Made by a program: the position numbers and the translations under genes
Source: a virus
Taxonomy: Duplodnaviria; Caudoviricetes
Strand: one strand, 5' to 3'
IMG/VR virus record: IMGVR_UViG_3300020472_000035
Span: 1 to 53,895 of that record
Length of the DNA stretch: 53,895 nucleotides
Notes under the pieces: model-generated
Database searches by the model: none
Told to the model about the DNA's origin: nothing
Seen by the model: only the letters and a program-made list of their open reading frames with translations
In this document: positions 16,370-34,300 of the stretch, piece after piece
Layout of the letters: every line of letters starts with the position of its first letter
How positions within the stretch are numbered: the stretch's first letter is position 1

Positions 16370-16377
16370 TATTTATG
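16370..16377 (-). promoter_or_regulatory. T4-type late promoter CATAAATA overlapping the gp7 stop codon
   Basis: Minus strand CCATAAATAAC, whose TAA is the gp7 stop; 20 nt upstream of the next ATG. Confidence 0.75.
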
Positions 16378-19300
16378 GTGTTTCGGGGTCAACTGGTTCC
16401 TCTCCGTATAGACTTAAGTCAGGAGCAGTCCAGTCATCTGGTACGCTAGTCTCAACTGAGACTATAGGATTCTCATATCCACTACCTGCATTACTAATTT
16501 CAACACCAGCAACACCAACCAGTGCGCGAATGTTACCATCAAATCCAGATATAGAGTCAACTCTTACTGTTGGTCTAGTTGTATAACCAGATCCACCAGA
16601 GGTCACCTGAACCTTCTCAATGGTTCCAGATGTTAGTTGAGCAGAACCTTTAGCATCTTGTCCGAATACAGATCCAAGATAGTCAAAGGTAATCAAAGAG
16701 TTAGAAGATTCAATAACAGCAACTTCACGATCTTCAGTCTCTCCTTGGATGTCAATAAAGTCACCAACTTCAATTGGTGGTACAACTTCTGCAGCGTCAA
16801 CGTCTGCCTCAGAACCAACGTAGGAGAATGCAACGAATGTTGATCCAACACGAGGAATCTCAGAGAAGATTATTCTAGAACCAACCAATTCAAAACCAAC
16901 GCCTGGTTCCTGAATAACACCATTCAGTGAGCATATGATATTATTTTCTGGAAGGATTGTAGAAGATTGAACACCATCAGTCAGTGTCAATGAATAGAAC
17001 ACGTCATCACGTCTCAAGTTGAATGACTGACGTAAGGAGTCGAACTCGAAGGATATATCATCCAACTGTCTCAACTTACCTACGTAGAATCCTGTGAACG
17101 ATGCACCTAGATCTGGTGCTTCAGTGAACTGAATATTATCTGAGAACGCTGTATATGCGTTTGCAGATCCAGGAGGTTGTAGAACACCATTAATAAAGAG
17201 AAGCATGTGTCCTGCTGGATCTGGGAAGTACTTCGTGCCATTCTCAATGGTTAACTTGAAGGTAGTTTGAGAACCATCAAATCCTCTGAATGCACGTTCA
17301 ACACGTCCTTTAAGATCAACCTTAGAAAGAATTGAACCCTTGTAATTATCCTTACTCATAATGCCATCTCTACCACTGAATGTTCCACGAACATCACTTA
17401 GATAGAAACGCTTATGTAAACCTGCAGTCTGTATAGCTTGAACCAAACCAGTTGCAGCACCAGTGACAACGACTCTAGTAACTACGTTTGCGTGACCTTG
17501 TGGATTTACAGGGTCAACTCCAGTTGCAAAGTCACCAACTTGATCACCATTCTGAATATCTCCTTTAACTATATCAATGTAAACCAAGTTATTATCAATA
17601 TCAACTTCAGTAATATTACCGTAGTTATTGATATCCATGATACCGTTAGTAATCTTATTAAGTTTATTACCAACTACAAATACATTCTTGTTGTCAATGA
17701 TTGAAATACCAAGTCGATAATGACCAGTAGAGGAAATTCTATGACCAATATTAAGATCTAATCCATCATACTTAAGAACATCAATATACAATTTCGATGT
17801 TGCTGGATAAATTGTTGCTGTAGTTTCAAATGTGCCCGTTAAGGTTTCAGTATCAACAGTTAGTTTACCACCACTATTATCTGTAACAGCAGCTTCTGCT
17901 TTTAAGAATCCTGTTGGAACTGCAGTTGCTCCAGAATCATATCCCTTGAATGGAATATTATCAGCAAATTCACCAACAAGATCAGTAATCTGAATTCTAT
18001 CCTCAATAGCATTGATCTGTGCTGTTGTAGTATTTGTTGCACCAACAACGTAATCCAATACAGCAAAGGTTCCACCAGTAACTGCAACATCAAGATACTT
18101 GAAGTTTTCATCTTCAAAGAATCCATAAATGCGACCAGTAACAGTTGCGTCACCTTGTTTCTGACAAGTCTCATTCATGATAAATGGACCATCAATGATA
18201 TCAGCATCAATACGGAAGCGTTGATGCACTTCAACAATTTCACCTTCATTCATACCAATGGATTCTAGTTCACCATAAGCACCGCTTGACATACCGTATA
18301 GGTAATCAGATGCGTTAAGTCCACCTGCTATTCCAACTGGAACATCTCTAGTACCATAAGTCTTAGTTGCTAACTTAATACCATGTTGAACAATAATATC
18401 AGTATAGTAAGTGCTATTTAATAATTGGTTTCTTATAATATCAAGACTATACCTTGTTAATCTAGCAATAGAGAATGGATCATAATTATTACTTGCAGAT
18501 TCACTAAAGTATGGAACGAACCCAGATTGAGCAGATGGATTTAATAATCCACCATGTAAAGCCTGATCTATCCATATTTCTAATTGATTGATAGTATAAG
18601 TCTTAATGTTATATGCTGTATCAGCATAGAATATCTCACCAGAACCAGAAGCATAAGGATCAATTACATTCTTAGTAAGTTTTTGACCCCATCCATAAAT
18701 TCCTGATGTGCCATCACCAGTGTAATTAGTCTGTCCAGTAGCATTCTTAACTATTACCTGTTGACGAAGTTGTGAGAAACCAAAGGAACAAGTAATTGTA
18801 ATATATGCTCTATACCAACCAGAACCGTAAGGAATGATACCATGATCATTAACAGTAACACCACCTTGAGGTGTAAACAGACTACCTGTAGTTCCAGTGG
18901 TTAAATCGCAATCAAAGAATGCTTGCTGTTTAGTAGCAGTATCCTCATCAAGAGAAACCATTACACGAACATTAGAAAATTCAGCAGCTTTTAAGAATAT
19001 AGAATAAGTAAATTGCTGTGAAGGTACAGTTCCTACTTCACCTGTGTCAAACGTTTCATTCGTAGTATCAAACTTAACACTGCCAGAATCCCAAGTTTCA
19101 TAAGCATTCAGACTGTAATTTCTGAACATGTTATGCTCACCTGCGATTGCAGTAGTAACAATCTTATCAGCAGTTAAACTATTATCAGGACCAACAAGAG
19201 CATTACTTGTAATAGTTGCATTTGTAAGAGTGTTTCCACTAGTAAGATCTTCTGGATACTGATAACCAATATTATTACTAACGATTTGATCTTGAACAGT

Positions 19301-22300
19301 AGAGGTAATTAACCTTGCATTTCTGAGTATTTCAACGTTTGCTGGATGTGTATACCAATCAAATGGAGCACTTACTCCATTACTTGCAATAACTCCCGCA
19401 CCTGTAGTCTGACCTTGAACAGTATTTCCTATCGCAACAGGAAGATTATTCATATAAGGTCCAATATAAAGTCTGCTATCCTTAGCATCCCATTCAAGGA
19501 TCATAGCATAACCACCAGTAGTTGAGTCAGTAAGAATTTCACCAACAATGAAATTACCAGCTACACTAGCAAGTTGTAGAACACGTGCTTCATGCTTATG
19601 TTCTATGTCAGTTGTAATAGAGTCTTGAACCATGTTTCCAAGTAACTCATCAACAAAATCATTATAAATCCACTGACCATTACCAAATTGAGTATTAACA
19701 AGATTTGTTAACTCTTCCTTATAGTAATTTGCATTGAATAGGATATTCTTCATTCCAGATCTTGCATCATCTTTGCCTGGAGCAAAGAAGTCAATTACGA
19801 TATCTACAAGTTCATTCCAACGACCAACTACTTCATCAATATCTGTAGTAGATTCTGTATCTCTATATGCAGGAGATGAAGCACCTTGAGATTGATATCC
19901 ACCGAAAGGAATAGATTCACTACTATTATAAGCATTATTTCTAACTACTTCTGCACCAACTGTCTTCAATACGGTCATACCATAAACAGTTGCTATGACC
20001 TCATCCTCAACCTGAGTAAGAGTTCCATCAGCAGCAACGTAGTATTCAAGTGCCTTAATAGTGCTGTTATTACCACCAGTCTGTAAGTCAGAGATTATTG
20101 ATTTAACAATCAATTCTACATCTCTCTCACAAGTTAGTTGTCCACTAACACCACCTGGACTTGGGAATGTAAAGGCTTGATAGTTTGCAGAACCTGCTTG
20201 ATATGTAAATTCATTTACTATGCTAGAAGTAACATCTTGTGCAATATACTCTCTATTGAAATAGAGTCTATTACCAGCAATATGATAATCTAAACCAGTA
20301 GGTGCAATAATGTCATTAACACTGGTTATCAATGCTTCAATGTTAGTCTTAACATCTGCACAATCACCAATAACACTTATTGCGTTAGAAGCAGTACCAC
20401 CTGCCCATGCGTGAACATAGTCACCACCAGCAATGATACCCTCGATATCTGCAGAAGCAAACTGATGTAGATAATCTCCACCAGATATTACAGCACCAGC
20501 AAGAGAACTTACATAATTGTGTGTAGTAGTATCGCTAATGGCACCCTGTCCACCGTTTACATTAATTGTAATTGTTCCAGCAGCCTGATCAGCACTATCA
20601 ATATTGATTGCAGTGTCATATGCATAGTCTTCTCCAGTTCCAGTTGAAGCACCTGCTGAACGTGGATATGACTTCTGAGTTACGTTTCCATCACTGTTAA
20701 AGTCACAAGTAAAGGTTAATGAATTAGGAGCAAGTTTAATGCTAGTATTAGCAACTAATCCGTGGTTAACAGCAAGAGTTAATACCATTACACCCGTAGT
20801 TGGATTGTAAGTAGCATTAGAAACATTGTGTAAAACTTTTGGAGTAGTTCCTACAAGAACACTAATAGTCTCTGCAGTTGCTTCAGTAATCTCCATAGGA
20901 AGATTATAGAAAGGATCAGTTGTTCTTGGATAAGACTTCAGAGTCATATAGTCATCCATGAAGCATCTAAACTTCAATGAATTAGGATTAATCCTAATAG
21001 GATGACCAACCTTTAAGTTGTGGTTACCAATCCAAAGTTTTAAGTTACCTCCAGTTGGGTTATACTCAGCATTTGTCGCTGTATATTTAACTTCTGGAGT
21101 AGCACCAACGTTAACTGTAATAGTTGTTGTAGTAACAGCATCGATAGTAACTGGTTTCTGATAGAAAGGATCGGTTGCACGTGGGTATGTCTTATTAGTA
21201 GCACCAGCATTCATTTGACAATTAAATGTCAATGCATCATCTGCAATTTGAATACTATCACCAACACTAAATCCGTGACCAACAGTAATACAATTGGTTG
21301 CAGAAGCAGTCAATACAAAGTTATGAGTTGTAGTGTCTGTAACAGCACCCTGACCACCGTTAACATTAACGGTAATTGTTCCACCACCTTGGTTTACAGC
21401 AGTAATAGGTAGGAAGTTATCGTATGCATAATCAGCACCATTTGTGGTATTAGCACCAAATGATCTAGGATATGCCTTCTGAGTCTGGTTGCCATTACCG
21501 TTATAATCACAAGTAAAGACTAAAGATTCTGTTTTAATTCCAATTTGATCACCGATGACTAAAGTATGAGTTCCAATTGTAAGTGATAAATCACCTGAAG
21601 TTGGGTTATAGACTGCACCTGTGACACTAAATGTTCCTGTATTAACAGCAACAGTCAACGTCATATCTCCTGTAGAAGGAATATAAGATGCGTTATAAAC
21701 ATCGTACTGTGTAGTGCTATCATTATTTGTTACACCCCAGTCACCAACGATAAGATTTTCTGTATTATCTTGTGTTAGAGTTCCATCAACTGCTTGCTTT
21801 AAGTAGTAAATTAGACGCTCATGAACATAAACTGACTGTGGAAGTTGTAATCTAATATGTTGTATTTCATCATTCAATCCAAGATAGAATCCAGCAGCAG
21901 TAATGACATTCTTATTACCACCCTGTTCAATGTCAGTGGCAATACCATCAACAACTTGTCCTAGGTCAGTCTTACAACGTTCTGTTCCATCTGTAGAACC
22001 ACCATTTTGGTTTCTTGGCATATCCTGAGCCAAAGCAGGATACTTCTGTAGCATATCATATGCAGCTTTATCAACAATTGCTCCACGGTTCTGACGAATT
22101 AGTTCGGCAGCATCACGGAATCTGTAACGACTGAATATGTCTATTCTATCTGTATAAACTAGATCAGCACCAGGATTATCATAGGTGACCTTGAATGGAA
22201 CTTCCATATAGGAGTGGATTGTTCCACCAACATATTCATGAACAGGACCAAGATCAGTAACAGTTGCTAGATGGTCAACAGGAGTTGTTAAAGCAGCATT

Positions 22301-25300
22301 TGAAATGGTATCTGTTAAGATTGAAATTAGGTTATTTGAAGTTGTATAAACATCAGAACAACTAGTAACTTTATAATCAGACTTGGTTATGCAATTAGAA
22401 TCTGCACTAACAAACTTATGATCATGTACGTTATCTGATGGAGACTTACCAACATTAACTACAAATGTATTAGCTGATGCATTTTTAACTTCTAATACTT
22501 GCTTACTTGCAGGATCAGAAGCACGTGGATAATCATGCTGAGTAGCATGGGCATCCTTAGAACAAGTGAATCTTAGAGAGTCATCAGCGATGTAAATGGA
22601 ATCACCAGCAACATGTATTCCTCTATGAGCAGCAGATACAAATGTATGAGTATATTCACCACCAGTTCTGATACCATTAGTAAGTCCAGACTTGAATGTA
22701 TGGTGATAATTACCACCTGTGGTTACTATTGCTCTTGTAATAGAATTTACAGATGAAGATTCAAATGTATGTGTATATTGATCAGCAAATGCAGCAACAC
22801 CAACATCAACAGTAAATGTATTATTAGTTGGATTGACAACTGTTAACCATCTACCACTAGCAGGGTCGGTTGTTCTTGGATATTCGTGAATACTTGAGTA
22901 TTGGTCTTTAGCACATCTAAAGGATAGACTTTCGTTAGTAATGCGAATCTTCTCACCACTCCGAATTCCGTGGAAAATACTAATACCTTGAGCACTAGCA
23001 GAAACAAAGTTATGTGCTGAAGTATCAGTAACAGCTCCACCACCGCCATTTACATTGACTGTAATTGTGGTTGCAGTTGTTGCTCTAATCGGTAAATGAT
23101 TGTTATATGCGTAGTCAGCTCCAGAAGGAGTAGCAGCACCAGTTGCTCTAGGATAAGATTTGTTTGTAGTGTTTCCATCATTATTATAATCACAAGTAAA
23201 GATTAATGAATTAGGAGCAATTAATATCTCCTGTCCAACTGCTAAAGAGTGAGATCCAACAGTTATTTCCATATCACCTGTGACAGGATTATATGTAACT
23301 GCACTAGCTGTATGCTGAGTTGTTGGAACTGTTATAGTCATATGTCCTGTAGCTGGATCATATGCAACAGTGCTTGGAGTAAATCTGTAAGGTGCTACGC
23401 TACTTAATGTATGTGCAGGAGTAAATGAAGGTGAATAACCATCCAAAGCATTAACTGTAACAGTTGTTGCACCTACTGCATCAATAGGAATTGCTTGAGC
23501 AACAAGTGGATCTCCTTGGATAATACCATCAGTATCTGAACCTGCATAAGTATGTGTTGTTGTATTTGTTGGAGTAGTTCCTTGTAGAATATCAACTTCA
23601 AACTGAGAATCGGTTACTTTACTAATGAATAACCACTTATCGCTTGCAGGATCAGTAGCACGAGGATATGTGTGTATAGTTGCGTTCTGATCTTCTAAAC
23701 ATCTGAACTTGAGTGAATTATCTTTAATCTTAATCGGTGTACCAGAAACCATACCGTGACCAAGAGTGACAGCATTAGCAGACGCAGAAACGAAATTATG
23801 CGTTGTAGTATCTGTAATAGCACCTTGACCACCATTAACATTGACCGTAATAGTATTTGAATCAGCAGCACGAACTTGAAGCCATGTGTCATATGCATAA
23901 TCTGCTCCACTAGTTGTTGTCGCACCACTTGCTCTAGGATAAGTCTTCTGAGTTGTGTTACCGTCACTGTTATAGTCACAAGTCATTGTCAAGGAATTAG
24001 GAGCAAGTTTGATCTTATTGCCTGGAATTATTCCATGACCAACCTGAATTGCACCATCAAGTGCAGAAGTAAAGGTGTGGTTACTAATATCTGTAATAGC
24101 ACCTGCTCCACCGTTAACATTAACTTCTATAGTTGTAGCACCTACAGCAGCAATATCTAACCATGTATCATATGCATAGTCAGCACCAGTTGCAGTAGAA
24201 GCACCAGCAGAACGAGGATAAGACTTAACTGTCTGGTTATTATCGTTATTAAAGTCACAAGTGAACTTAATAGACTCAGGAGTGAATTTAATCCTATCAT
24301 TAGTTGTTAAACTATGAGACCCAATAGTTAGAACCAGAGTTCCAGCAGAAGGTGAATAAGTTGCACCACTAATGTTATATGACCCTGCATTTGCAGAAAT
24401 AGTCATTGTCATATCACCCGATGTTGGGTTATATGTTACAGCAGTAGGAGTAAATGACTCAGTAGGAATATTAACTGTCAAAGCACCTGTAACTGGATTG
24501 TAAATTGTTCCAGTTCCAGCAGTATGAGTAGCAACATTACTTCTTGGATATGTGTGCTTCTCAACAGAACCATCCATTGCACAAGTCATTATCAATGAAT
24601 CAGGAGCAATCTTGATTGTTGAATTTGCCTTGCTAACACAACCTGAAACAGCACTTACGAATGTATGTGTATCAACGTTAGTAGAAGGAATTGCATCTAG
24701 AACCTGAACATCAAAAGTATCTGTAGTAACATTAAAGATTTCAATCCACTTATTGCTAACTGGATCACTTGCACGTGGATAATCTTTTTGTGCAGCACCA
24801 CCAGAGGCACCACCAAAGTTACAACTTAGTTTTAATCCACCATCAGCAATCTTAACTTTCTCACCATTAGAGAAGTTATGACCTGCAATAGTCAATGTCA
24901 TAACACCACTTACAGGATTATATGCAACATCTGTTGGTGTATGAGTTGTAGGAGCAGGGTGACTATGTGCGTCAATAGTTAATGCTAGAGCACCAGTTGA
25001 AGGATTATAAGTTGCTGCACTTGGTGTATAAGCAACAGTTGGAGTTGCACCGACATTAATAGTTACGCTATTGTCACGTTTAACAATACCATGTGGATTA
25101 GACTTAACAAATAAATGTCCAAATTGACCTTCTACACCAGCCTTACCTACAAATACTGTAAATGTGTGATCACTAGCAGCGTTAATTTTTAACCATCTGG
25201 CAGCAAATGGATCATTAGGTCTAGGATAAGCATGTTCTGTTGAATGATTATCTTTACCACATGTAAAGGTTAATGAATAATTCTCTATTCTAATTTCATT

Positions 25301-28300
25301 AGATGTTGTTAATCCATGATTCAAAATTGTCATGGTTAACATACCAGTCACTGTATTATAAGTTGCACCTTCAACAGTCATTCTAGAAGTACTACCATTA
25401 CCCCAAATTGGTAATGCTGTATTATAGAATGGATCATCAACTCTAGGATAAGAGTGATCTGTAGAATCATTATCTTGTGAACAAGTAAATGTCAAGGCAT
25501 CCTTGAGAAGTTTCAAAGTTTCACCAGATCTGGTCATTCCACCAGGAGATGCACTTATGAATTGGTGTGTATAACTACCACCAGATGTTACTGCGTTAGA
25601 AGCAGTACCACCTGCCCAAGTATGGGTATAAGGAGCACCTGCAACAACAGCACCTTTGGCAAGTCCACCTGCCCAAGTATGAGGTGCACTGGTTCCAGAA
25701 GCAATACCAACATTAAGAGTAATTTCGTAATCAGTTACTGAATCAATATTGATTGGCTTATCATAGAATGGATCAGCACCACCTACACAGTTACCGCCTG
25801 TGCAACCAGATGCACGAGGATAAGTCTTAACTTGACCACCAGCTACCTTACCAACATTAACAGTAAGTGTTCCACCAGAAACACCTTCAACTGCTATATT
25901 AGTGTTATAGAATGGATCAGTTGATCTAGGATAAGTATGACTTGAATTATTACTATCAGCATCACAAGTGAATGATAAGGAATTCGCATCAATAGTTATC
26001 ATACTTGAAGCATGTTGAATACCATTAGTGGTTGCAGAAACAAATGTATGAGCAGTTGAGTTGCTAGATGGAACAACATCTAGAACCTGAATATTATACT
26101 GATCAGCATCAACTATTCCTACAATCGCTATCCACTTATCGCTAATTGGATCAGAAGCACGAGGATAAGAATGAAGACTGATATAATTGTCTTGAGCACA
26201 CTTGAATGTTACTGCATTATCTGCAAGTTTAACTAAATCACCAGCAGCGAATCCATGACCAGTTTTCTTAATGGTCATGATACCTGTAGAAGGTTCGTAT
26301 GTAGTTCCTGCTTCTGGAGTATGAGTTGTAGGTGCAGTTATAGTAGTAGAATTAGTTGTTAATACTAATTCTCCTGTAGAATGAGTATACGTGGCATTTG
26401 TTACATTATATTGATTAGAAGTTCCAACTTCATTTACAGCATTAGATGCGGTTCCACCATTATATGTGTGATTACCACTACCGTAAGTACAACTGAATGA
26501 CAATGCATTAGCAGGGATTTTAATCTTAGTATTTGGTGTTAAATGATTCTTAGTAACTATTCCGTTAGCTGCTGCAGAAACAAAGGTGTGTGCTTCATTA
26601 CCAATTGAAATCTGACCTTGACCACCATTAACATTAACAGTAAATGATGTGCTATCATATGCTGTAATTGGAAGCCACTTATCATATGCATAGTCAGCAC
26701 CACTTGTTGTAGCAGCACCTGATGAACGAGGATATGTATTACCTGGTGAACTTACACCAACAGCACAAGTGATCGTTCCATTAAGTTGATCAACTGCTAA
26801 TATTGGAAGAGCTGTATTAAATGCAGGGTCTGTTGCTCTTGGATATGTATGATTAGATCCATGATTATCTAAAGAACAAGTAAATGTTAATGCATCCTGT
26901 GCAATTGTTATAGTATCACTAGTTGTATAACTATGAGAACCAATATTAACTATTAAGTAACCAGTTTGTGCAACATAAGATGCAAAGTTGACATCTTCAT
27001 TAGTTCCACTAACGCTAACTGCATTAGTAACGTTTCCACCAACATAATTATGAATACCTGCACCGTATGTGCAACTGAATGTTAGAGAGTTAGCTACAAT
27101 CTTAATTGAATCTGTAGTTGTTAGACTATGTGCTCCAGTCGTAATTTTTAAATTACCAGTTGAAGGATCATAAGTAGCACCTGTTGCGGTTCTTCTACCT
27201 ACCTGCAATGTCATTACACCAGATGCAGTATCAAAGGATGCATCAGAAACGTCATAATCTACTTGAGGTGCAGCACCAACATTAACAGTGATTGTTCCTG
27301 CTGTTTGATCTACAAAACTAATTGGTATAGAACTCTCATATGCTCTATCAATTCTACGAGTTATTGAATTAGCAGTAGAAGCAGTGCAAGTATGATCTGT
27401 TGTATTTGTGGGTGTTGTTCCCATTAATACATTAACGTCAAATGTAGATGCTTGACAGTTGAATACTTCGATATACTTACCACTAATAGGGTCTGTAGAT
27501 CTTGGATATGTATGAGTTGTTATATGATTATCTTCACCACAAGTAAATGACAGTGAATTATCAGCAATCGTAATCTTATCGCCATCTTGGAATCCATGAT
27601 CACCATCAGTTTGGATGGACATTACACCTGTTGTAGAGTTATAAGAAACTCCAGTGTAGTCTACAGAATGTGTTGAAGTTATATTTCTTGGATATGTCTT
27701 ATTAGCAGTATTACCATCCATTGAACATGTAAATGTCAATGCATTATTTCCGATAATAACATCATCTCCAACTTGAAGACCGTGATTAGCACCAATGGTT
27801 AACACCATATCACCACTAGCGTTATCATATGTGGCACCAGTTACATTATGCTGAACATTAGCAGTAGTACCAACATTAACATCAAATTCTGTATGAGTTA
27901 CATTACTAATAGGAAGCCATTTATTGTAATATGGGTCTGTAATTCTTGGATAGGTATGCTCACTACCATAGTTGTCCATTGAACACTTAAAGATCAATGA
28001 ATCTCTATCAAACATAACTCTATCACCAGTATAGAATCCATGCTCAACAGTAATTGGATTTGGATCTGCAGACTTAAACTTATGCTTATAATCACCACCA
28101 CATATAATTGCATCTGCAACAGCAGAATCAAATGTATGAGTTGTTGTATTACTTGATTTACCAACGTTAATAGTAATTACACCTGACTGATGTGTAAGAC
28201 CATTAGCAACAGCACTTGAGAATGTATGAGTGTCAGTATTAGTAGAAGGAACAACATCTAGAACTTGAACATCAAAATCATTTCCACTTACATTTGATAC

Positions 28301-31300
28301 TTCTAACCATCTACTACTTGCATAATCAGTAGCTCTTGGATATGTTTTAGTTCCACCACTACCGAATGAACAAGTTAAGGATAAAGTATCATCTTGAATC
28401 ATTACTTTATCGCCATTGTTGAATGAATGACCAGCACCAATTGTGATTGTCATTACACCAGTAGCACCGCTATAAGAAGCAGCAGTAATTGTATGTCTAC
28501 TTCCTACCGAATCAATATTGACAGGCATCTCATAGAACATATCACGATGTTGCTCAAGATTACCCATATATCCAACGAATGTATGAGCACTTGTATTAGT
28601 AGAAGGAACAACATCTAAAACTTGAACATCTACACTAGTAGATTGTACATTTTGAACTGGGATCCACTTACCACTGATATAATCACCAGGTCTAGGATAA
28701 GAGTGCTGTGTAGTATGATCATCCTTAGCACAAGTCATTACAATATTATAATCAGGAATTCTAACCCGATCACCATTTTTCATTCCATGACCTGCTACGA
28801 GATCTAATGTCATGATACCTGTAGTAGGATTATATGCTCCAGTAGTTACAGTATGAAGATCAACAATAGAACGAGGATAAGAATGAACACCAGTTCCATA
28901 ACCGCAAGTAAAGAGAAGACTATTAGACTTAATTCTAATTGATGTATTTTGTCTCTCTAATCCACCTGCAGCAAATGAAACGAATGAATGAGCATCAGTA
29001 TTTGTTGAAGGAATAATTGCTAGACATTGAATATCAAATGTATTTGCAGTTACATTAGTAATTGGAATAAACTTACCGCTAATTGGGTCAGTAGAACGAG
29101 GATAAGTCTTCTGTGCAGCACCACCAGTAGCACCACCAAAGTTACAACTCATGGTTAATGCATTATCAGCAAGTCTTACCTTGTCACCCTCAGCAAATCC
29201 ATGATTAGCAAGAGTAAGAGTTACAACACCTGTATTTGGATCATAAGCAGCACTAGTAGGTGAATGAACACTTGGTGCTTGTAAATCATGATCACCAACA
29301 GTTAAAGCCATTACACCTGTGGTAGGTGTGAAGGTAGCAGCAGTTGGAGTAAGAGTAACTTTTGGAGAAATTCCTACATTAACCGTAATTGATGTATCAG
29401 TTACATGTGAAACTTCAAGTTGATTATTATGTGCTGGATCACTCTGTCTTGGATATGAGTGGGTTGTTGTATGACCATCCATATCACAACTAAAGTGAAG
29501 TGAATTATCAGAAATCTTAACTTTTTGTCCTGTCTCTATATTATGAGCATCTATTGTTAGTTCTAAATCTCCACTAATTGCACTATAATCAGCATCTCTA
29601 ACATGATATTGATCATTACCAACATTCATGGTCATTACACCTGTTGACGCAGTATAGTCAGCATTATGAACACTATGCTTACTACCTGGTTTTAGATCAT
29701 TATCACCGATATCCATCGTCAAGAAACCAGTATCAGCATCATAAGTTGCACTAGCAGCAGTATAACTTATTGCAGGTGATTTACCGACATTGACATCAAA
29801 TGTTCCTGTAGCAACGTTAGAAACTTCTAACCATCCTTGTCCTGCAGGATCCTCTGGTCTAGGATAACTCTGTGAAACTGTATTATTATCACAAGTACAT
29901 GTCATTGTGATGGAATTAGGTTCAAACTTAATCCTATCTCCATTCTTCAGACCATGACCGACTGTTAAACAGTTAGATAAAGATGATGAGTAAGTATGAG
30001 CATAAGCATGACTAATAGCACCAGCACCACCATTAACATTAACTGAAATAGTTGTAGCAGTTACATCTTGAATTCTTAGATACTTGTCATATGCATAATC
30101 TTCTCCATTTGGTGTATTAGCACCTGCTGCTCTAGGATATGCACCAGTACCAACTCCACTATTATCACAACTAAATGTAATTCCACCAGTAGCGATCTTA
30201 ACGCTATCATCAGTTGTTAAAGTATGAGCACCAATAGTTAGAACCATTACACCAGTTGCATGGTCATAAGTGGCACCAGTAACGCTGACCTGACTTGTAG
30301 GAACAGTTATAGTTAATACACCTGTTGTAGCAGTATATGCAGCATTAGTTGCTGTAATATGGTGAGGACCATTTAAATTATGATTTGCAGCAGTGATTAA
30401 CATATCACCCATTGTTGGATGGTATGAAATATCAGTTGGACTATATTTCTCTAAAACTTGAGTTGTATAACCATCATTAGTAATAGAAGTATCATAATGC
30501 TGAATTAATCCATGATCACCTTGTATATCCCAAGGAGTATTAGTAACAATATACTTGATGATTCTATCTAAAACTTCAAATGTGTAGACTGTCATAGAGA
30601 CATCATCTTCAACATTCAAGATAGTAACAGGATTAGTAGTTCTATCAACATAGTATGAAGAAGCCTTCCACATATGATGATTACTACCATTACGTAAATC
30701 TTCTACAAGAGAATCAATAACATCTCTTACATCATCCTCACAATCAGACTCAGATCCAATGATAGTATGAGCAGGGTAAACCTGCTTCATGATATAAACA
30801 GATTCCTGAGCAAGTAATTCTTTGTTTAATATTAATAAATCTGCAGCATTCTTATATCTGTGAATCTTACCATTAAATCCTGTAGGAGCACCAGCGATAT
30901 TAGATTTATAAGTTACACTTAAAGCATCGTTGTTAACGAATTCACCCTTACCAAAACTCTCTCCACCAGACCAATCTTCAGTAACTGTTGCAGCATCTGC
31001 ACCATCAAAGTGGACTAGTAATTTTGTATCAGTATCTCCTTGCCAAATACCATTAGGAGAAGTAAATGGAACTGTAGCATAACGTGCAAGTCTAGAATAT
31101 CTAAATTCATCAATCCATCCAGCAAGACTATTAAGTCCCTGCCAATCAGAACCTATTCTAATTGGTTTGTTTGCTGTATAGTTACCACTATCTGTTCCAG
31201 TTCCAATCTCTGTTCCATTAGAAACGATCTTAACATCAGTACCAGTTCTTTGGATTACTAAATGATACCAAACATTATTGTTTAAAACATTTGCTCCAGT

Positions 31301-34300
31301 ATTTGCTATATCAGAACCATTAACATTTAAACGAACTTGTGCTGCCTCTAAGTAAATTCTAGGAGCAACTTCTGTCGCAGATTCCCTCATATCAACTAGA
31401 GTTATAGTTCCAGTTAATGAAGCAGCATCTAAACGAACCCAGAATTCAATAGTGTAATCACCTGTACCAGGAGCAAATTCAGAAGACTTAGGAATCTGAA
31501 CATAATCATTTGTTGCAGCATCAAGAAGCAATGAAGCAGTTCCAAACTTCTTCTGTGCAGTATCTAATTGTGCACTATTAGAGAAGTTAATTACATGATA
31601 ATCTGCACCATGTCTTAATGATCTACCAATCTTACCAAGATATATTGTATTACCTGAATAGTTAAATCCAATAACTTCAGCCTTAGTATCTCTAGTTCTA
31701 ATAATTTGACCAGTTCCGAATAATCCAGAACCTTGCTTATCTTTAAAGGTTAATTTTCTTGCTTTTCCATCTTCACCAGTAACAAAATCACCAATATTAT
31801 TTCCGTAAGAGATCTTATAATTCCTAATCATCTCTCCGACAACCAATGTTCCATTGGCATTATCGTAAGGAATTACTATATTGCTAACATATTCATTAGC
31901 AGGGAATTGTGAATCAATATCTGTTGTAAAGGTTTCATAATCAACAACACTAATTGTAGACTTAGAAATGTCATCTAAAACTATGTTTGGATATGTAATT
32001 GATGTAACTCTGTTGAATAATAGACCAAAGAATGATGAACCTTCAGATATATTGACCTGACCAATAAACTCATTGGTTGTAGGATCTTGATATGTTGCTG
32101 TAGCAGTAAGTCTTGCAACAACACCAGACTGAGCACCCATAATAACATCATCAAGAGCAAGATCAAATAGTCCAGGAGTGGACTGATATGTTCCAGTAGT
32201 CTTACTTAAAGTTAATTTGTTATTAACAGCAATACTAGTTGAATAAACAGGACCATCTTCTGCCTGTGTAAATGCAGTAGTACCAAGTTGTCCTCTAGTT
32301 ACTTCTAATGTCCAAGAATCATTATTGACAGTTATTTGAGTAACAGTTACAATTTCAGAACCAATCTGATAATTAGATGATACAACAAACGTTCCTGCAG
32401 CAGGAGGAGTATCAGGATCAGTTGAAATTTGCTTAGGTGCTACAACTTCAATAGCAGCAGTAGAAGGACCAACTCCGTAACGAAGTTGAGCAAGTGGATC
32501 TTCTGCACCACCTGCTAAGTTAATTGCTTCAACCTTAGCAGTCTGACCATCATGGTTACTAACTGTCTCACCGAATACAAATAAACCAAGATTTGAAATA
32601 TCTGAAATAGAAACGTAATTAGCAACAAATCCAGTAGCACTATTGTTTACCAATTCATTTGCTTGGAATGCAGTTCCTTCTGTAAAATAACCTTGAACAT
32701 CATCTCCAACAATTGCTGTGACAGTAAATCTGGTTAGAGATTCTTGTCCAACCATCGTATTTCCTCTAATTGGGAAAATACCACTAATATTAGTAAATAC
32801 TACTTGCTTTATATCAATTTGCTGTATATCAACATTGACGTATTTGACACTTGCAGGTGGTTGAGGTGGTTGACTGAATACAATAGAATCACCTAAAATT
32901 GTAAATGATGTCCCTGGAGTTTGAGCAACACCATTCAAAATGATCATTAACTGATTAGCATTAGCAACTACATTATCACCATTAACTTGTAGTGGGAATT
33001 GAGTCTTAACACCATCAAATTGATTAGAAATATCATCTAATCTCTGTACAACAGAAGTCAAAATGTTCTCAGAAGACGTTAGTCTCTTCTGACGGAACAG
33101 AACTTCTGAATTATTAAATTCTGAATAAACTGGTTCAACTAGGGAGAAACTTTGTATATTAGGAACAATTGCTTCTCTTGCAAGTTCAACAGCTTTTGTT
33201 ATCTGGAAATCAGTTTCCTTATTAGGAATTTGACCATAATCCGATAGATTTAACTCACCAAATACCTTAAATGATGCAGGGTGAACATTCTTAAGTAAAA
33301 TCTCTTTCCATTCACCAATAGAAACAGCAGACTTAACAGCATAGGAGAAGTCCTGATAATAGTAAGAGTCTTGAATCTTCTGAATAATTTCAGAAGGTTT
33401 ACCAATGTCATCAATGAATTGACCAGTAGTTTTGGTAATAGAACCAATTTCTAGAACACCACGAGCAACCTTTAAATCACTAATGATACCTGAAGACTTA
33501 GAAATAACACCTGTAATTCTTTGATTCTCTGAAAAATCTCCAGTGTAATCAACAATCTTAATAACTCTAGGTCCAACCTGCCAACCAGAGTTAGTTGAAA
33601 CATATCCACTAGCAGTAGCAGCATCTAATGAATCACCTTGATATACAAGTTCACCTTCAAGGAAAGTAGATGTTACAACGTTCGCAGTAGCAGCACCACC
33701 AAATGATTCGGTTAAAACAGTCTGACGACCTTCACCAGCGTTAACGAAAGTAATAGCATCACCTAAAGCAGCGTTAGAAGCAGTAATAGCAAGTTTTAAC
33801 TGGTTAGTTTCTAGTGAATTTGCAGCACCAGCAATAGCATAATAAGTGTTAGATGCATTTAATCTACCAATAGCACCAGCAGCAAGTGGGAAATCTGCCC
33901 CATCTCCAGTATCAGTAACTGTTAATGTAACTTCAGCACCATTCTGAATACCATGTGGGAAAGCAAACTGTAGTAATCCTAAGTCAAGGTTAACAACATA
34001 GTTAAAGGATGATCTTAAAGATACAACAGGAGCAGAAGAGTAACCTGAACCTGGATCTTTAACGATAATATCATCTAGACGACCGTTCTTAATAGTTGCT
34101 TCAGCAGTTGCATTAAATCCACCACCACCTGTAATAACAACAGTAGGTGATTGTGAATATCCAGAACCTGGGTCAGTAATTGTAATACTGTCTAGGATAC
34201 TTGTAGAAGTTAACTGAGCATTAATTGGGAACGAAATCTCAGGACGTAAAGTATAGTCATGAGGATAATCATAACCAAAGTTATTATTCTTAAGTTTCTT

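What the first reader, a model, noticed from the sequence alone, without database searches (positions are those of the whole stretch)
22380..30450. Recursively nested ('Russian-doll') domain tree in gp7: 25 copies of one domain inserted inside each other, 8 levels deep
Seen: the ~110-aa unit has four ordered parts: A (A.YNP.TG.M.LT), B (H.L..GD.I.I..SL.F.C), C (YPR..DP..I..V..TF.VNVG) and D (HTF.SA..GI). The parts do not run ABCD-ABCD. There are runs of openings with no B (three A's at ~29540-29775; three at ~24330-24530) and runs of closings (three D's at ~25530-25690; three at ~22607-22780). Parsed last-opened-first-closed, every part pairs up and 25 YPR motifs give 25 complete domains. Numbered by opening order: 1[2[3,4[5[6[7[8,9,10]],11[12,13[14[15],16[17]]]],18,19[20,21[22[23]],24[25]]]]]. 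The outermost domain opens at SPTDISYHPTMGDMLITAANHNL (~30370-30450) and only resumes at GDSIYIADDSLRFTC (~22606), about 2580 aa later. Established: the H.L..GD.V.I pattern resembles E1-FCCH-like beta-barrels, and domains with adjacent N- and C-termini tolerate loop insertion. Inference: the chain folds as a branched, dendrimer-like tree rather than beads on a string, giving a bushy multivalent appendage on the baseplate (receptor capture, particle adhesion, shielding or drag). I know of no described protein with this depth of self-nesting.
Basis: partly seen in the sequence, partly recalled or inferred. Interest (0 to 1): 0.95.

Follow-up and report, generated by a model that had tools for sequence, protein, structure and literature searches.

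The report
Self-nested barrel domains in cyanophage gp7
A giant baseplate protein of a marine cyanophage carries 25 copies of one small beta-barrel domain inserted inside each other up to eight levels deep, an extreme new example of an architecture so far described mainly in cyanobacterial RNA polymerase.

Summary
Window 16373-43768 (-) is one 9131-aa ORF, the gp7-like baseplate protein of a T4-like marine cyanophage. In aa 4442-7130, 57 segments tile the chain without a gap and reassemble, last-opened-first-closed, into 25 units of 99-118 aa, 8 levels deep. A second nest of 4 units lies at aa 7355-7799.

All 29 rejoined units match the unit HMM end to end. None of 20,000 shuffled segment orders parses as well.

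Relatives give the strongest evidence. One has the outermost unit uninterrupted at the same site. Others hold 4, 11, 15 or 17 units, and the differences are whole units or sub-trees sitting in loops.

Two AlphaFold2 sub-tree models (pLDDT 75 and 83, pTM 0.63 and 0.58) build split units as single barrels. In one model, 37 of 50 structural matches align a contiguous FCCH-type barrel across a 119-residue inserted unit. The fold resembles the E1 FCCH and endosialidase barrels (Z 7.4-8.5). No Pfam family reaches its threshold.

Recursive same-fold nesting is already described for the Si3 insertion of cyanobacterial RNA polymerase (eight domains, six levels). This is therefore a new, deeper variant of a known kind. 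The shape and function of the appendage remain inferred.

The parts
16373..43768 (-). gp7-like baseplate / virion structural protein ORF, 9131 aa (P0001)
   Evidence: Orthologues: P-SSM4 gp7 7312 aa, P-RSM1 5356 aa, Syn19 6483 aa. Flanked by gp6, gp25, gp9-like and gp8 homologues.
22379..30445 (-). Main nest: 25 units in 57 segments, aa 4442-7130. Tree: 1[2[3,4[5[6[7[8,9,10]],11[12,13[14[15'],16'[17]]]],18,19[20,21[22[23]]],24[25]]]]
22379..30445 (-). Unit 1 (depth 1), two pieces: 30359-30445 (A) and 22379-22609 (B, C, D)
   Evidence: Rejoined unit scores 110.9 bits against the HMM. The same unit is contiguous in locus L020. Complex prediction gave weak support.
22610..30358 (-). Unit 2 (depth 2), pieces 30290-30358; 29774-29959; 22610-22663
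   Evidence: 113.6 bits. Its A|B junction is contiguous in P-RSM1, Syn19 and L014.
29960..30289 (-). Unit 3 (depth 3), contiguous, sits in the A|B loop of unit 2
22664..29773 (-). Unit 4 (depth 3), pieces 29678-29773; 25385-25528; 25040-25075; 22664-22729
   Evidence: 83.0 bits. Its A|B junction is contiguous in P-RSM1 and Syn19.
25529..29677 (-). Unit 5 (depth 4), pieces 29606-29677; 27860-28045; 25529-25579
   Evidence: 105.4 bits
28046..29605 (-). Unit 6 (depth 5), pieces 29363-29605; 28046-28099
   Evidence: 102.4 bits
28100..29362 (-). Unit 7 (depth 6), four pieces 29273-29362; 28871-28954; 28502-28549; 28100-28189. Hosts units 8, 9 and 10 in three different loops.
   Evidence: 86.5 bits. 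In L005 the orthologous unit is contiguous where ours holds units 8 and 10.
28955..29272 (-). Unit 8 (depth 7), contiguous
28550..28870 (-). Unit 9 (depth 7), contiguous, inserted right after the YPR of unit 7
28190..28501 (-). Unit 10 (depth 7), contiguous, inserted in the C hairpin of unit 7
25580..27859 (-). Unit 11 (depth 5), pieces 27683-27859; 27266-27352; 25580-25636
   Evidence: 99.2 bits
27353..27682 (-). Unit 12 (depth 6), contiguous
25637..27265 (-). Unit 13 (depth 6), pieces 27191-27265; 26474-26548; 25637-25834
   Evidence: 66.5 bits, the weakest unit
26549..27190 (-). Unit 14 (depth 7), pieces 27056-27190; 26549-26740
   Evidence: 107.3 bits
26741..27055 (-). Unit 15 (depth 8), one uninterrupted stretch but circularly permuted: D piece 26987-27055 precedes A-B-C 26741-26986
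   Evidence: 80.2 bits after re-ordering. The parser flags it as D-first.
25835..26473 (-). Unit 16 (depth 7), permuted: D 26405-26473, A 26330-26404, B-C 25835-26011
   Evidence: 79.2 bits; flagged D-first
26012..26329 (-). Unit 17 (depth 8), contiguous
25076..25384 (-). Unit 18 (depth 4), contiguous, in the C hairpin of unit 4. Conserved in P-RSM1 and Syn19.
23381..25039 (-). Unit 19 (depth 4), pieces 24950-25039; 24539-24628; 23381-23515. The sub-tree 19[20,21[22[23]]] was modelled.
   Evidence: 89.5 bits. AF2 model mf2f834bc1d32: pLDDT 75.2, pTM 0.63.
24629..24949 (-). Unit 20 (depth 5), contiguous
   Evidence: Matches the UBA1 FCCH domain at Z 8.5 and the phi92 endosialidase barrel at Z 8.0.
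23516..24538 (-). Unit 21 (depth 5), pieces 24455-24538; 23516-23761
   Evidence: 113.8 bits. Contiguous in L021 and L022. Structural matches span model residues 166..510 and 169..513.
23762..24454 (-). Unit 22 (depth 6), pieces 24380-24454; 23762-24040
   Evidence: 124.4 bits. One structural match spans model residues 194..427.
24041..24379 (-). Unit 23 (depth 7), contiguous
22730..23380 (-). Unit 24 (depth 4), pieces 23315-23380; 22730-22975
   Evidence: 109.7 bits
22976..23314 (-). Unit 25 (depth 5), contiguous
20372..21706 (-). Second nest a[b,c[d]], aa 7355-7799. a = 21635-21706; 21095-21280; 20372-20428. b = 21281-21634. c = 20840-21094; 20429-20482. d = 20483-20839.
   Evidence: AF2 model m7256a4b62b6b: pLDDT 83.4, pTM 0.58. 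37 of 50 structural matches span unit c across unit d.

Best explanation
The region encodes a self-nested array of one ~105-aa beta-barrel unit. The unit resembles the E1 FCCH domain and the phage endosialidase barrel and belongs to no curated family.

Shown: new complete units, or whole sub-trees, sit in one of five inter-strand loops of an existing unit. This gives 25 units in 57 chain segments, up to 8 levels deep, at one internal site of the gp7-like baseplate protein. A second nest of 4 units lies further down the chain. Related phages carry 1, 4, 11, 15 or 17 units at the same site, and the differences are whole units or sub-trees in loops.

Shown only in models: each unit, contiguous or split into 2-4 pieces as far as 2584 aa apart, folds as its own barrel.

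Inferred: the unit's first and last strands lie side by side, so an insert leaves and re-enters its host at one point. The A pieces then form the outward path of the chain and the B, C and D pieces the return path. The whole 2689-aa nest is thus a side-branch that begins and ends at the same spot of the baseplate protein. Inner, contiguous units probably fold first and bring the halves of their hosts together. The product is most likely an exposed, branched, doubly tethered projection at the baseplate periphery. Its many barrels probably act in adhesion or receptor binding, possibly to glycans, by analogy with the endosialidase barrel.
For: 1. Segments complement each other. HMM fragments tile the region and their HMM coordinates match last-in-first-out.
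- 29 of 29 rejoined units give one end-to-end HMM hit. The 17 split or permuted units score 66.5-124.4 bits. The 12 contiguous ones score 111.2-139.1 bits, but these helped build the model.
- First-in-first-out pairing fails: 10 inconsistent fragments against 1.
- 0 of 20,000 shuffled orders parse as well.
- Swapping A pieces among the 12 A|B-split units lowers the fit. The observed interaction sum is 18.75 against 0.04 +/- 7.7 for permutations, and 701 of 100,000 permutations reach it.

2. Orthologues.
- L020 has unit 1 uninterrupted (HMM 2-104, 117 bits) between the same conserved flanks.
- P-RSM1, Syn19 and L014-19 carry 1[2[4[18]]], with units 2 and 4 contiguous at the points where ours hold 3 and 5[...].
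- L021 and L022 have unit 21 contiguous where ours and 10 relatives hold the 231-aa 22[23].
- L005 has unit 7 contiguous where ours holds 8 and 10.
- The stack parser closes 10 of 10 orthologue regions and the second nest with 0 inconsistencies.

3. Selection on split units. G16, C44, Y55, P56, R57, D60 and H93 are kept in 29 of 29 units, H25 in 26 of 29 and Y11 in 27 of 29. The same residues are kept in 35 of 35 orthologue copies.

4. Models.
- Sub-tree 19[20,21[22[23]]]: pLDDT 75.2, pTM 0.63. The orphan A19 piece has pLDDT 84/79/89.
- a[b,c[d]]: pLDDT 83.4, pTM 0.58. Its first 30 residues have pLDDT 89-91.
- 37 of 50 VIA rows align a contiguous barrel to model 204-209..426-431. An example is UBA1 FCCH 4p22_B 216-294 with 75 residues aligned, rmsd 2.4, Z 7.8. 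That range is unit c skipping the 119-residue unit d.
- Other rows span unit 21 (166..510, 84 aligned, Z 5.6; 169..513) and unit 22 (194..427).

5. Complex prediction of A1 (35 aa) against B1C1D1 (84 aa) gave weak support: score 0.51, best of 3 controls 0.01.
- The mark was reached by 58 of 80 solved complexes and 2 of 110 mismatched pairs.
- At 0.60 or under it was reached by only 7 of those 80 and by both mismatches that passed.
- The runs agree in at least 76% of contacts and the partner's pLDDT is at least 61.
- My own alignments were used, so these counts hold only roughly.

6. Circular permutants exist: units 15 and 16 here and a D-first copy inside the LamG domain of Syn19. This fits adjacent termini.

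7. Precedent. The crystal structure of Si3 shows that same-fold nests do fold, and AlphaFold matched it at RMSD 1.08 A (PMC10895346, passages).

8. Setting. An orthologue cluster (T4-GC969) was found in purified S-SM1 virions (PMC3037559, passages; annotation). The neighbours are baseplate genes.
Against: - No experimental structure exists.
- The AF2 alignments were shallow (13 and 14 rows). No coordinates, contacts or PAE were available, so closure of split units is read only from the first and last aligned residue of structural matches.
- Closure of the two root units (19 and a) is not clearly shown by any row.
- The complex test is only 'weak support'.
- Several D pieces (units 6, 11, 13, 19 and the two D-first pieces) are seen only by a loose motif, not by the HMM.
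- The parser needed an ad hoc rule for D-first copies and has 1 unresolved fragment.
- In the family-wide parse, 12 of 221 continuations were inconsistent and many proteins stayed unclosed. These may be fragments or divergent forms.
- Fold matches of Z 7.4-8.5 are at the level the tool calls common for models without a true relative.
- Shape, exposure and function are pure inference.
- The DNA mechanism of insertion is unknown. Parent-child identity is 36%, the same as for all pairs, so the source of each insert cannot be traced.
Confidence: 0.85

Rival explanations
1. Linear reading. The chain is a fibre or solenoid in which 'orphan' A and D pieces pack against whatever lies next to them in sequence. 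The balanced counts would then be a by-product of repeat shuffling.
For: Runs of three A pieces or three D pieces could in principle form small sheets. No contact map could be inspected.
Against: - Orthologues show the split halves as one uninterrupted unit.
- Structural matches span split units and skip the insert.
- 0 of 20,000 shuffled segment orders parse as well as the real one.
- Each split unit keeps the invariant residues of all four parts.
Confidence: 0.03
2. Evolutionary scar. The insertions happened, but only the uninterrupted leaf units still fold. The interrupted hosts have decayed into linkers between leaves.
For: Split units score lower on the HMM than contiguous ones (66.5-124.4 against 111.2-139.1 bits). 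Some D pieces are very divergent.
Against: - The seven invariant residues are kept in 29 of 29 units, split or not.
- Split units are conserved in position and sequence across relatives at 45-77% identity.
- A pieces have pLDDT 74-91 in the models.
- The lower HMM scores are partly by construction, because the leaves trained the model.
Confidence: 0.06
3. Swap between chains. The halves of the outer units are completed by another gp7 copy in the assembled baseplate (3D domain swapping), not within one chain.
For: Baseplate proteins occur in several copies per baseplate (recalled from phage T4, not tested here). The A1 and B1C1D1 pieces dock when given as separate chains, with weak support (score 0.51, best control 0.01). 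That result cannot tell an association within one chain from one between chains.
Against: - Inner nests bring the two halves of each host together within one chain, so closure within the chain is entropically favoured (inference).
- The monomer AF2 models close split units within the chain.
- Si3 closes its units within one chain (PMC10895346).
Confidence: 0.05
4. Assembly artefact. Repeats caused a chimeric order of segments in the assembled contig.
For: No independent contig spans the whole region. Many short 'joints' appear in the metagenome contigs, with sides of 20-29 letters, which the tool says often come from other organisms or repeats.
Against: - The ORF stays open for 27.4 kb.
- DNA copies are only 60-92% alike over stretches of at most 152 nt.
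- Ten IMG/VR contigs at about 70-77% identity share the same sub-tree topologies.
- Contigs of three other runs from two studies match pieces of 302-1373 nt. Of the 24 listed pieces, 22 have 0-2 differences; two X4 pieces have 13 and 18. One piece (21305-22677, 0 differences) crosses the D4|D2|B1 junctions.
Confidence: 0.01

Closest known systems
Si3 insertion of cyanobacterial RNA polymerase beta' (RpoC2)
   Same: Copies of one small beta domain are inserted into each other recursively. Si3 has eight SBHM / hybrid-motif domains, four of them built from distant parts of the chain, and an ECOD survey describes it as a six-level recursive insertion with branch points. The whole nest sits in a loop of a host protein (PMC10895346, passages; PMC13114784, passages).
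   Different: The fold differs (SBHM against an FCCH-like barrel). Si3 has 8 units against 25 (+4) here, and 6 levels against 8. Si3 belongs to a cellular enzyme, this nest to a virion baseplate protein. Here the number of units varies from 1 to 25 between related phages. No sequence relation was tested or is claimed.
E1 FCCH domain (Pfam PF16190; UBA1 residues ~216-295)
   Same: It gives the best structural matches to single units: 9mc4_A Z 8.5, rmsd 2.2, 72 aligned; 4p22_B Z 8.3 and 7.8; 2v31 Z 7.2 and 6.3. The nearest named ESM-Atlas cluster is also E1_FCCH (score 0.92, 168 shared features).
   Different: The Pfam model is not reached: 2 of 12 units match, best E 0.027, below the cut-off. 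The unit is longer (~105 aa) and carries its own invariant H/C/YPR/D/H set. FCCH is not known to nest (recalled).
Beta-barrel domain of phage endosialidases (Pfam PF12195; phi92 endosialidase 4hiz_A 256-340)
   Same: Structural match at Z 8.0 (rmsd 2.0, 78 aligned) and Z 7.4 (rmsd 2.2, 82 aligned). It is a phage tail protein. From memory, not from a call: that barrel is itself an insert in a beta-propeller and binds sialic acid.
   Different: The Pfam model is not reached: 1 of 12 units, E 0.012. It is a single copy, not nested, and no sialidase domain is present here.
Tandem repeat domains of phage fibres and bacterial adhesins (Ig-like, BIG and similar)
   Same: Many copies of one small beta domain in a giant surface protein.
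   Different: Those run head to tail (ABCD-ABCD). Here only 11 of 25 units occupy one uninterrupted stretch, and none directly follows another as a plain tandem pair outside a host loop.
T4-type gp7 baseplate wedge protein
   Same: The gene order gp25-gp6-[this ORF]-gp9-like-...-gp8 is shared, and the P-SSM4 orthologue is annotated gp7.
   Different: The ORF is far larger than orthologues without a large nest (5356 aa in P-RSM1). Only a weak, sub-threshold match to Pfam Baseplate_wedge PF23786 was found in the part I scanned (E 0.07).

Membership tests
Recursive same-family domain insertion (Si3-type architecture) | All units belong to one sequence family | tested here: met
   29 of 29 rejoined units match one HMM end to end, at 66.5-139.1 bits.
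Recursive same-family domain insertion (Si3-type architecture) | A host unit is interrupted by a complete unit in a loop, and the host is contiguous in relatives | tested here: met
   Units 1, 2, 4, 7 and 21 are contiguous in L020, P-RSM1/Syn19, L005 and L021. The five insertion sites fall between predicted strands.
Recursive same-family domain insertion (Si3-type architecture) | Inserted units are themselves hosts, over several levels | tested here: met
   Depth 8 in both the manual and the automated parse.
Recursive same-family domain insertion (Si3-type architecture) | Discontinuous pieces form one folded domain | tested here: inconclusive
   Seen in models only. 37 of 50 structural matches span unit c across unit d, and other rows span units 21 and 22. 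The complex test gave weak support (0.51 against 0.01). There is no experimental structure and no contact map.
Pfam PF16190 E1_FCCH | Score at or above the Pfam gathering threshold | tested here: not met
   0 families at E<=1 for 24[25]. 2 of 12 leaf units match at best E 0.027, below the cut-off.
Pfam PF16190 E1_FCCH | Same barrel fold | tested here: inconclusive
   Z 7.2-8.5, rmsd 2.2-2.5, 71-76 residues aligned. The tool notes that a best Z of 7-8 is typical even without a true relative.
Pfam PF12195 End_beta_barrel | Score at or above the Pfam gathering threshold | tested here: not met
   1 of 12 units matches, E 0.012.
Pfam PF12195 End_beta_barrel | Same barrel fold | tested here: inconclusive
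   4hiz_A gives Z 8.0 and 7.4, rmsd 2.0 and 2.2, with 78 and 82 residues aligned.
Tandem repeat array | Units follow one another head to tail in register | tested here: not met
   Segment order shows runs of openings and runs of closings. 14 of 25 units are split into 2-4 pieces. Tandem Repeats Finder was not run.
T4-like cyanophage gp7 / virion structural protein (PHROG 701) | Synteny with gp25, gp6, gp9-like and gp8, and orthology to annotated gp7 | tested here: met
   Neighbours match phrog_261, 219, 677 and 438. The region upstream of the nest is 45-73% identical to relatives. The P-SSM4 orthologue is annotated gp7. The units themselves match phrog_701 in 12 of 12 cases.
T4-like cyanophage gp7 / virion structural protein (PHROG 701) | Presence in virions | not testable with these tools
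   Only by proxy: cluster T4-GC969 was detected in S-SM1 virions (PMC3037559, passages). Table S8 of that paper could not be seen because supplements are closed.

The most novel reading that the evidence does not exclude
This may be the deepest and largest same-fold domain nest yet seen: 8 levels and 25 units in one site. It would also be a second, independent invention of Si3-like recursion, used by marine cyanophages as an evolvable way to grow appendages out of an internal loop of a baseplate protein.

On this reading, whole sub-trees are gained and lost between close relatives as modules that tune adsorption or host range. Each barrel would carry a conserved His-Cys-(YPR)-Asp-His site, a metal or ligand site assembled from pieces that can lie 2584 aa apart. 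That site would both staple the split units and make the tree a multivalent binder.
Probability: 0.35. Interest if true: 0.9.

Novelty: new variant of a known kind. Interest (0 to 1): 0.78.

Why it matters
Domain insertion is usually one level deep. The ECOD survey I read presents a six-level case as remarkable (PMC13114784, passages). Here is a natural series running from 1 to 25 units at one site, in a family of about 700 representative proteins. That makes the evolution and folding of recursive insertion testable: which loops accept inserts, in what order units fold, and how discontinuous barrels avoid mispairing with 24 homologous neighbours.

For phage biology, it points to a large, variable and so far unimaged structure on the baseplates of the most abundant ocean myoviruses. 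This structure may bear on adsorption and host range.

For annotation and structure prediction, it shows that repeat finders and linear domain callers misread such proteins. No Pfam family covers the unit, and MAFFT aligned an orthologue's A piece to the wrong unit.

Tried and rejected
- The Pfam scan of 24[25] and of the second nest found no family for the unit. A first attempt failed on a frame error and was corrected.
- The PDB sequence search with a 12-unit profile gave a best E of 0.22, which is noise.
- Foldseek of the whole 445-residue model against the PDB gave TM <= 0.14 and prob <= 0.47, with rows such as lambda tail tip and Vip3. This is meaningless for a multi-domain model.
- The unit HMM against the eight neighbouring ORFs found nothing (best E 0.025, 1.1 bits).
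- The first versions of the stack parser failed on this protein. Short C pieces, one weak A piece (0.8 bits) and D-first pieces were missed. One search fixed all but one merged fragment.
- The D-only HMM found only 19 D pieces in the main nest at a score above 0.
- I asked whether children are copies of their parents. They are not: parent-child identity is 36.0%, the same as the 36.0% for all pairs.
- The family-wide parse of 150 representatives left many proteins unclosed, so it gives depth only roughly.
- No model coordinates are laid in /data, so contacts could not be computed.
- I gave up an AF2 alignment for 7[8,9,10] because MAFFT put the orthologues' A7 on our A8.
- Literature searches found no description of this nest in cyanophage proteins. 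Searches found the Si3 precedent.
- Read laying: no contig of an independent run spans the whole region, and the many short joints (sides of 20-29 letters) are uninformative.

Full report
WHAT IS THERE

Window 16373-43768 on the minus strand is a single open reading frame of 9131 aa. Its neighbours match the baseplate families gp6 (phrog_219), gp25 (phrog_261), a gp9-like connector (phrog_677), a 1397-aa wedge subunit (phrog_708) and gp8 (phrog_438). The same gene order is found around the orthologues in three phages: P-SSM4 (annotated gp7, 7312 aa), P-RSM1 (5356 aa) and Syn19 (6483 aa). So this is the gp7-like giant baseplate or virion structural protein of a T4-like marine cyanophage (Kyanoviridae relatives). 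An orthologue cluster, T4-GC969, was detected in purified S-SM1 virions (PMC3037559, passages read). Its Table S8 could not be seen because supplements are closed.

CHECK OF THE OBSERVATION

The tripeptide YPR occurs 29 times in the protein and nowhere outside two stretches: 25 times at aa 4544-7080 and 4 times at aa 7433-7701. Twelve uninterrupted copies of the unit align well over about 107 columns. An HMM built from them, and later from 47 uninterrupted copies that include orthologues, finds full copies and also partial fragments. The HMM coordinates of those fragments complement each other.

My manual parse uses 57 segments that tile aa 4442-7130 with no residue left over. They assemble into 25 units of 99-118 aa. 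Written as a tree:

1[2[3,4[5[6[7[8,9,10]],11[12,13[14[15'],16'[17]]]],18,19[20,21[22[23]]],24[25]]]]

The maximum depth is 8. I also find that units 15 and 16 are circular permutants, with the D strand written before A.

A second, smaller nest a[b,c[d]] lies at aa 7355-7799 (window 20372-21706).

The 27 child units sit in five different places of their hosts:
- A|B loop: 12
- C|D loop: 8
- directly after YPR: 3
- the hairpin inside part C: 2
- between F.C and YPR: 2 (these are the two permuted copies)

All five places fall between predicted strands of the barrel.

IS IT MORE THAN CHANCE?

- After rejoining, 29 of 29 units give one end-to-end HMM hit. The 17 split or permuted units score 66.5-124.4 bits. 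The 12 contiguous ones score 111.2-139.1 bits, but they helped train the model.
- An automated stack parser reproduces the tree, with 19 of 20 continuation fragments consistent. The single miss is two adjacent D pieces merged by HMMER. First-in-first-out pairing gives 10 inconsistencies.
- None of 20,000 shuffles of the 47 detected fragments parses as well.
- Among the 12 units split at A|B, the true A/rest pairing fits the HMM better than permuted pairings; 701 of 100,000 permutations reach the observed value. This mostly reflects whether the H-G-L motif lies before or after the break.

ORTHOLOGUES: THE STRONGEST EVIDENCE

A scan of IMG/VR with the conserved region upstream of the nest gave 19 loci.

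- In L020 the site holds one uninterrupted unit (HMM 2-104, 117 bits) between flanks that align with ours on both sides. So A1 and B1C1D1, 2584 aa apart in our phage, are the two halves of one ancestral domain.
- P-RSM1, Syn19 and L014-L019 hold four units, 1[2[4[18]]]. Units 2 and 4 are contiguous exactly where ours carry unit 3 and the sub-tree 5[...].
- P-SSM4 holds 11 units, L004-L013 hold 15 (plus the second nest of 4), and L021/L022 hold 17.
- In a plain MAFFT alignment, L021 and L022 have unit 21 uninterrupted where ours and ten relatives have the 231-aa 22[23].
- L005 has unit 7 uninterrupted where ours holds units 8 and 10.
- The parser closes all ten orthologue regions examined, and the second nest, with no inconsistency.

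NOT AN ASSEMBLY ARTEFACT

- DNA copies are only 60-92% alike over at most 152 nt.
- Ten independent contigs share the topologies.
- Contigs of three further runs from two studies match pieces of 302-1373 nt. Of the 24 listed pieces, 22 have 0-2 differences; two X4 pieces have 13 and 18. One piece crosses the D4|D2|B1 junctions.
- None of these contigs spans the whole region, and run X1, which tiles it perfectly, may be the source.

DOES IT FOLD AS A NEST?

Two AlphaFold2 models were made from orthologue alignments.

Sub-tree 19[20,21[22[23]]] (553 aa, 13 rows) has mean pLDDT 75.2 and pTM 0.63. The isolated A19 piece scores 84/79/89. Nest a[b,c[d]] (445 aa, 14 rows) has pLDDT 83.4 and pTM 0.58. 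Its first 30 residues score 89-91. No coordinates or PAE are given out, so I used the aligned ranges of structural matches instead.

In the second model, 37 of 50 rows align a contiguous barrel of about 80-100 residues to model residues 204-209..426-431. That range is unit c (205-289 plus 409-426), so the alignment must skip the 119-residue unit d. An example is UBA1 FCCH 4p22_B 216-294 with 75 residues aligned, rmsd 2.4, Z 7.8. Closure of the two root units is not clearly shown by any row.

A complex prediction of A1 (35 aa) with B1C1D1 (84 aa) gave weak support:
- The score was 0.51 and the best of three controls 0.01.
- The mark was reached by 58 of 80 solved complexes and 2 of 110 mismatches.
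- At 0.60 or under it was reached by only 7 of those 80 and by both passing mismatches.
- The runs agree in at least 76% of contacts and the partner's pLDDT is at least 61.
- My own alignments were used.

Split units also keep the family's invariant residues. G16, C44, Y55, P56, R57, D60 and H93 are present in 29 of 29 units, H25 in 26 of 29 and Y11 in 27 of 29. The same residues are kept in 35 of 35 orthologue copies. That argues against decay of the interrupted hosts.

WHAT THE UNIT IS

No Pfam family reaches its threshold and no PDB sequence matches. Single units resemble the FCCH domain of ubiquitin-activating enzyme E1 (Z 8.5, 8.3, 7.8) and the barrel of phi92 endosialidase (Z 8.0, 7.4). 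Flavin-reductase-type barrels follow at Z 5-7. The tool warns that a best Z of 7-8 is common even without kinship.

Two weaker lines point the same way. Sub-threshold Pfam hits go to E1_FCCH (2 of 12 units, E 0.027) and End_beta_barrel (1 of 12, E 0.012). The nearest named ESM-Atlas cluster is E1_FCCH (0.92). I therefore call the unit FCCH-like in fold but not a member of either family.

The family is small: 727 of 1.84 billion representatives at E<=1e-3. In the phage collection, 278 of 50,697 records hold it, all named Synechococcus, Prochlorococcus, Cyanophage or Marine. A rough parse of the 150 best representatives finds depth 2 or more in 117. One protein closes fully at depth 8 (P0007), and another looks like a tandem array of four-deep nests (P0002).

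HOW IT MOST LIKELY WORKS

Shown: the nest grew by insertion of complete units or sub-trees into five loops of existing units.

Shown in models only: each unit is its own barrel.

Inferred:
- The first and last strands of the barrel are neighbours. The three circular permutants (units 15 and 16, and a D-first copy inside the LamG domain of Syn19) fit this. An insert therefore leaves and re-enters its host at one point.
- The A pieces make the outward path of the chain and the B, C and D pieces the return path.
- The 2689-aa nest is a side-branch that starts and ends at one spot of the baseplate protein.
- Uninterrupted inner units can fold first and draw the halves of their hosts together.

The shape may be a branched set of arms rather than a compact bush. 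The one solved precedent, Si3, is a 150-A elongated arm (PMC10895346).

Function is not shown. The position in the baseplate module, the variability between relatives and the likeness to a lectin-like endosialidase barrel (its sugar binding is recalled, not tested) make multivalent adhesion or receptor binding my best guess, at about 30-40%.

The DNA mechanism of insertion is unknown. Parent and child are no more alike (36.0%) than any two units (36.0%; maximum 60%).

COMPARISON WITH WHAT IS KNOWN, AND NOVELTY

Recursive nesting of one fold is described. The Si3 insertion of cyanobacterial RNA polymerase has eight SBHM domains, four of them assembled from distant parts of the chain, in a crystal structure that AlphaFold matched at 1.08 A (PMC10895346, passages). 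An ECOD-wide survey of 48,551 insertion events singles it out as a six-level recursive architecture (PMC13114784, passages).

My eight literature searches found no description of such a nest in a phage protein or in this domain family. The finding is therefore a new variant of a known kind. It differs from Si3 in five ways: another fold, a virion protein, about three times as many units, two more levels, and a graded natural series from 1 to 25 units.

The claim of no precedent is not, and shape and function remain open.

Noticed in passing
window 20372-21706 (aa 7355-7799): A second, separate nest of four units, a[b,c[d]], lies about 225 aa downstream of the main one and outside the finding's coordinates. 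It is conserved with the same topology in relatives at about 70% identity.
   Followed up: yes
L003:19497-19805 (Syn19_088 aa 4074-4176); ours LamG at window 31091-31513: In Syn19 one unit in permuted order (D-A-B-C) sits inside the concanavalin-like LamG domain (PF13385), which is uninterrupted in our protein. The unit can therefore also insert into an unrelated fold.
   Followed up: partly
all 29 units, e.g. unit 20 at window 24629-24949: An invariant constellation is present in every unit: H25 (26 of 29), C44, Y55-P56-R57, D60 and H93 (29 of 29 each). It has one residue from each of the four parts A, B, C and D. It could be a metal or ligand site that ties the pieces together. This was not tested.
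   Followed up: partly
window 26987-27055 and 26405-26473: The two D-first pieces and the D pieces of units 11, 13 and a share a variant motif (H.W/Y.GG.ASNAV) that differs from the common HTF.SA form. This suggests a sub-class of units.
   Followed up: no
window 30695-30742, 20084-20131 and, by eye, near aa 7137, 7253 and 7803: A helical-looking motif (C..D[LIV]...I..L...D...GGN) recurs in the conserved sequence on both sides of each nest. The nests may therefore sit in loops of a repeated helical scaffold.
   Followed up: no
P0002 (4764 aa) and P0007 (4419 aa): P0002 parses as about six four-deep nests in a row, that is, tandem duplication of whole nests. P0007 parses as a fully closed nest of depth 8.
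   Followed up: partly
P0038, P0144, P0112: These proteins show many openings that never close in the parser (up to 16 left open), with best HMM stretches covering only the first ~60-98 positions. They may be a truncated or different repeat form of the unit.
   Followed up: no
window 29977-30233 (unit 3): One contig of run X4 differs at 18 positions and has a 3-nt insertion behind 30118, while other runs match exactly. This looks like strain-level variation concentrated in one leaf unit.
   Followed up: no
alignment A5, window 28100-29362: MAFFT aligned the orthologues' A7 piece to our A8 instead of A7, although by my hand count A7 is the closer match (13 against 10 of 27 positions). Nested repeats make ordinary alignments ambiguous at insertion borders.
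   Followed up: partly
aa ~330-620, 1080-1300, 3200-3240 and 9059-9095 of the ORF: A different short repeat (G[SAT]GY...P.V.I, 12 motif hits) recurs in the N-terminal third and at the C-terminus of the same protein. It was not analysed.
   Followed up: no
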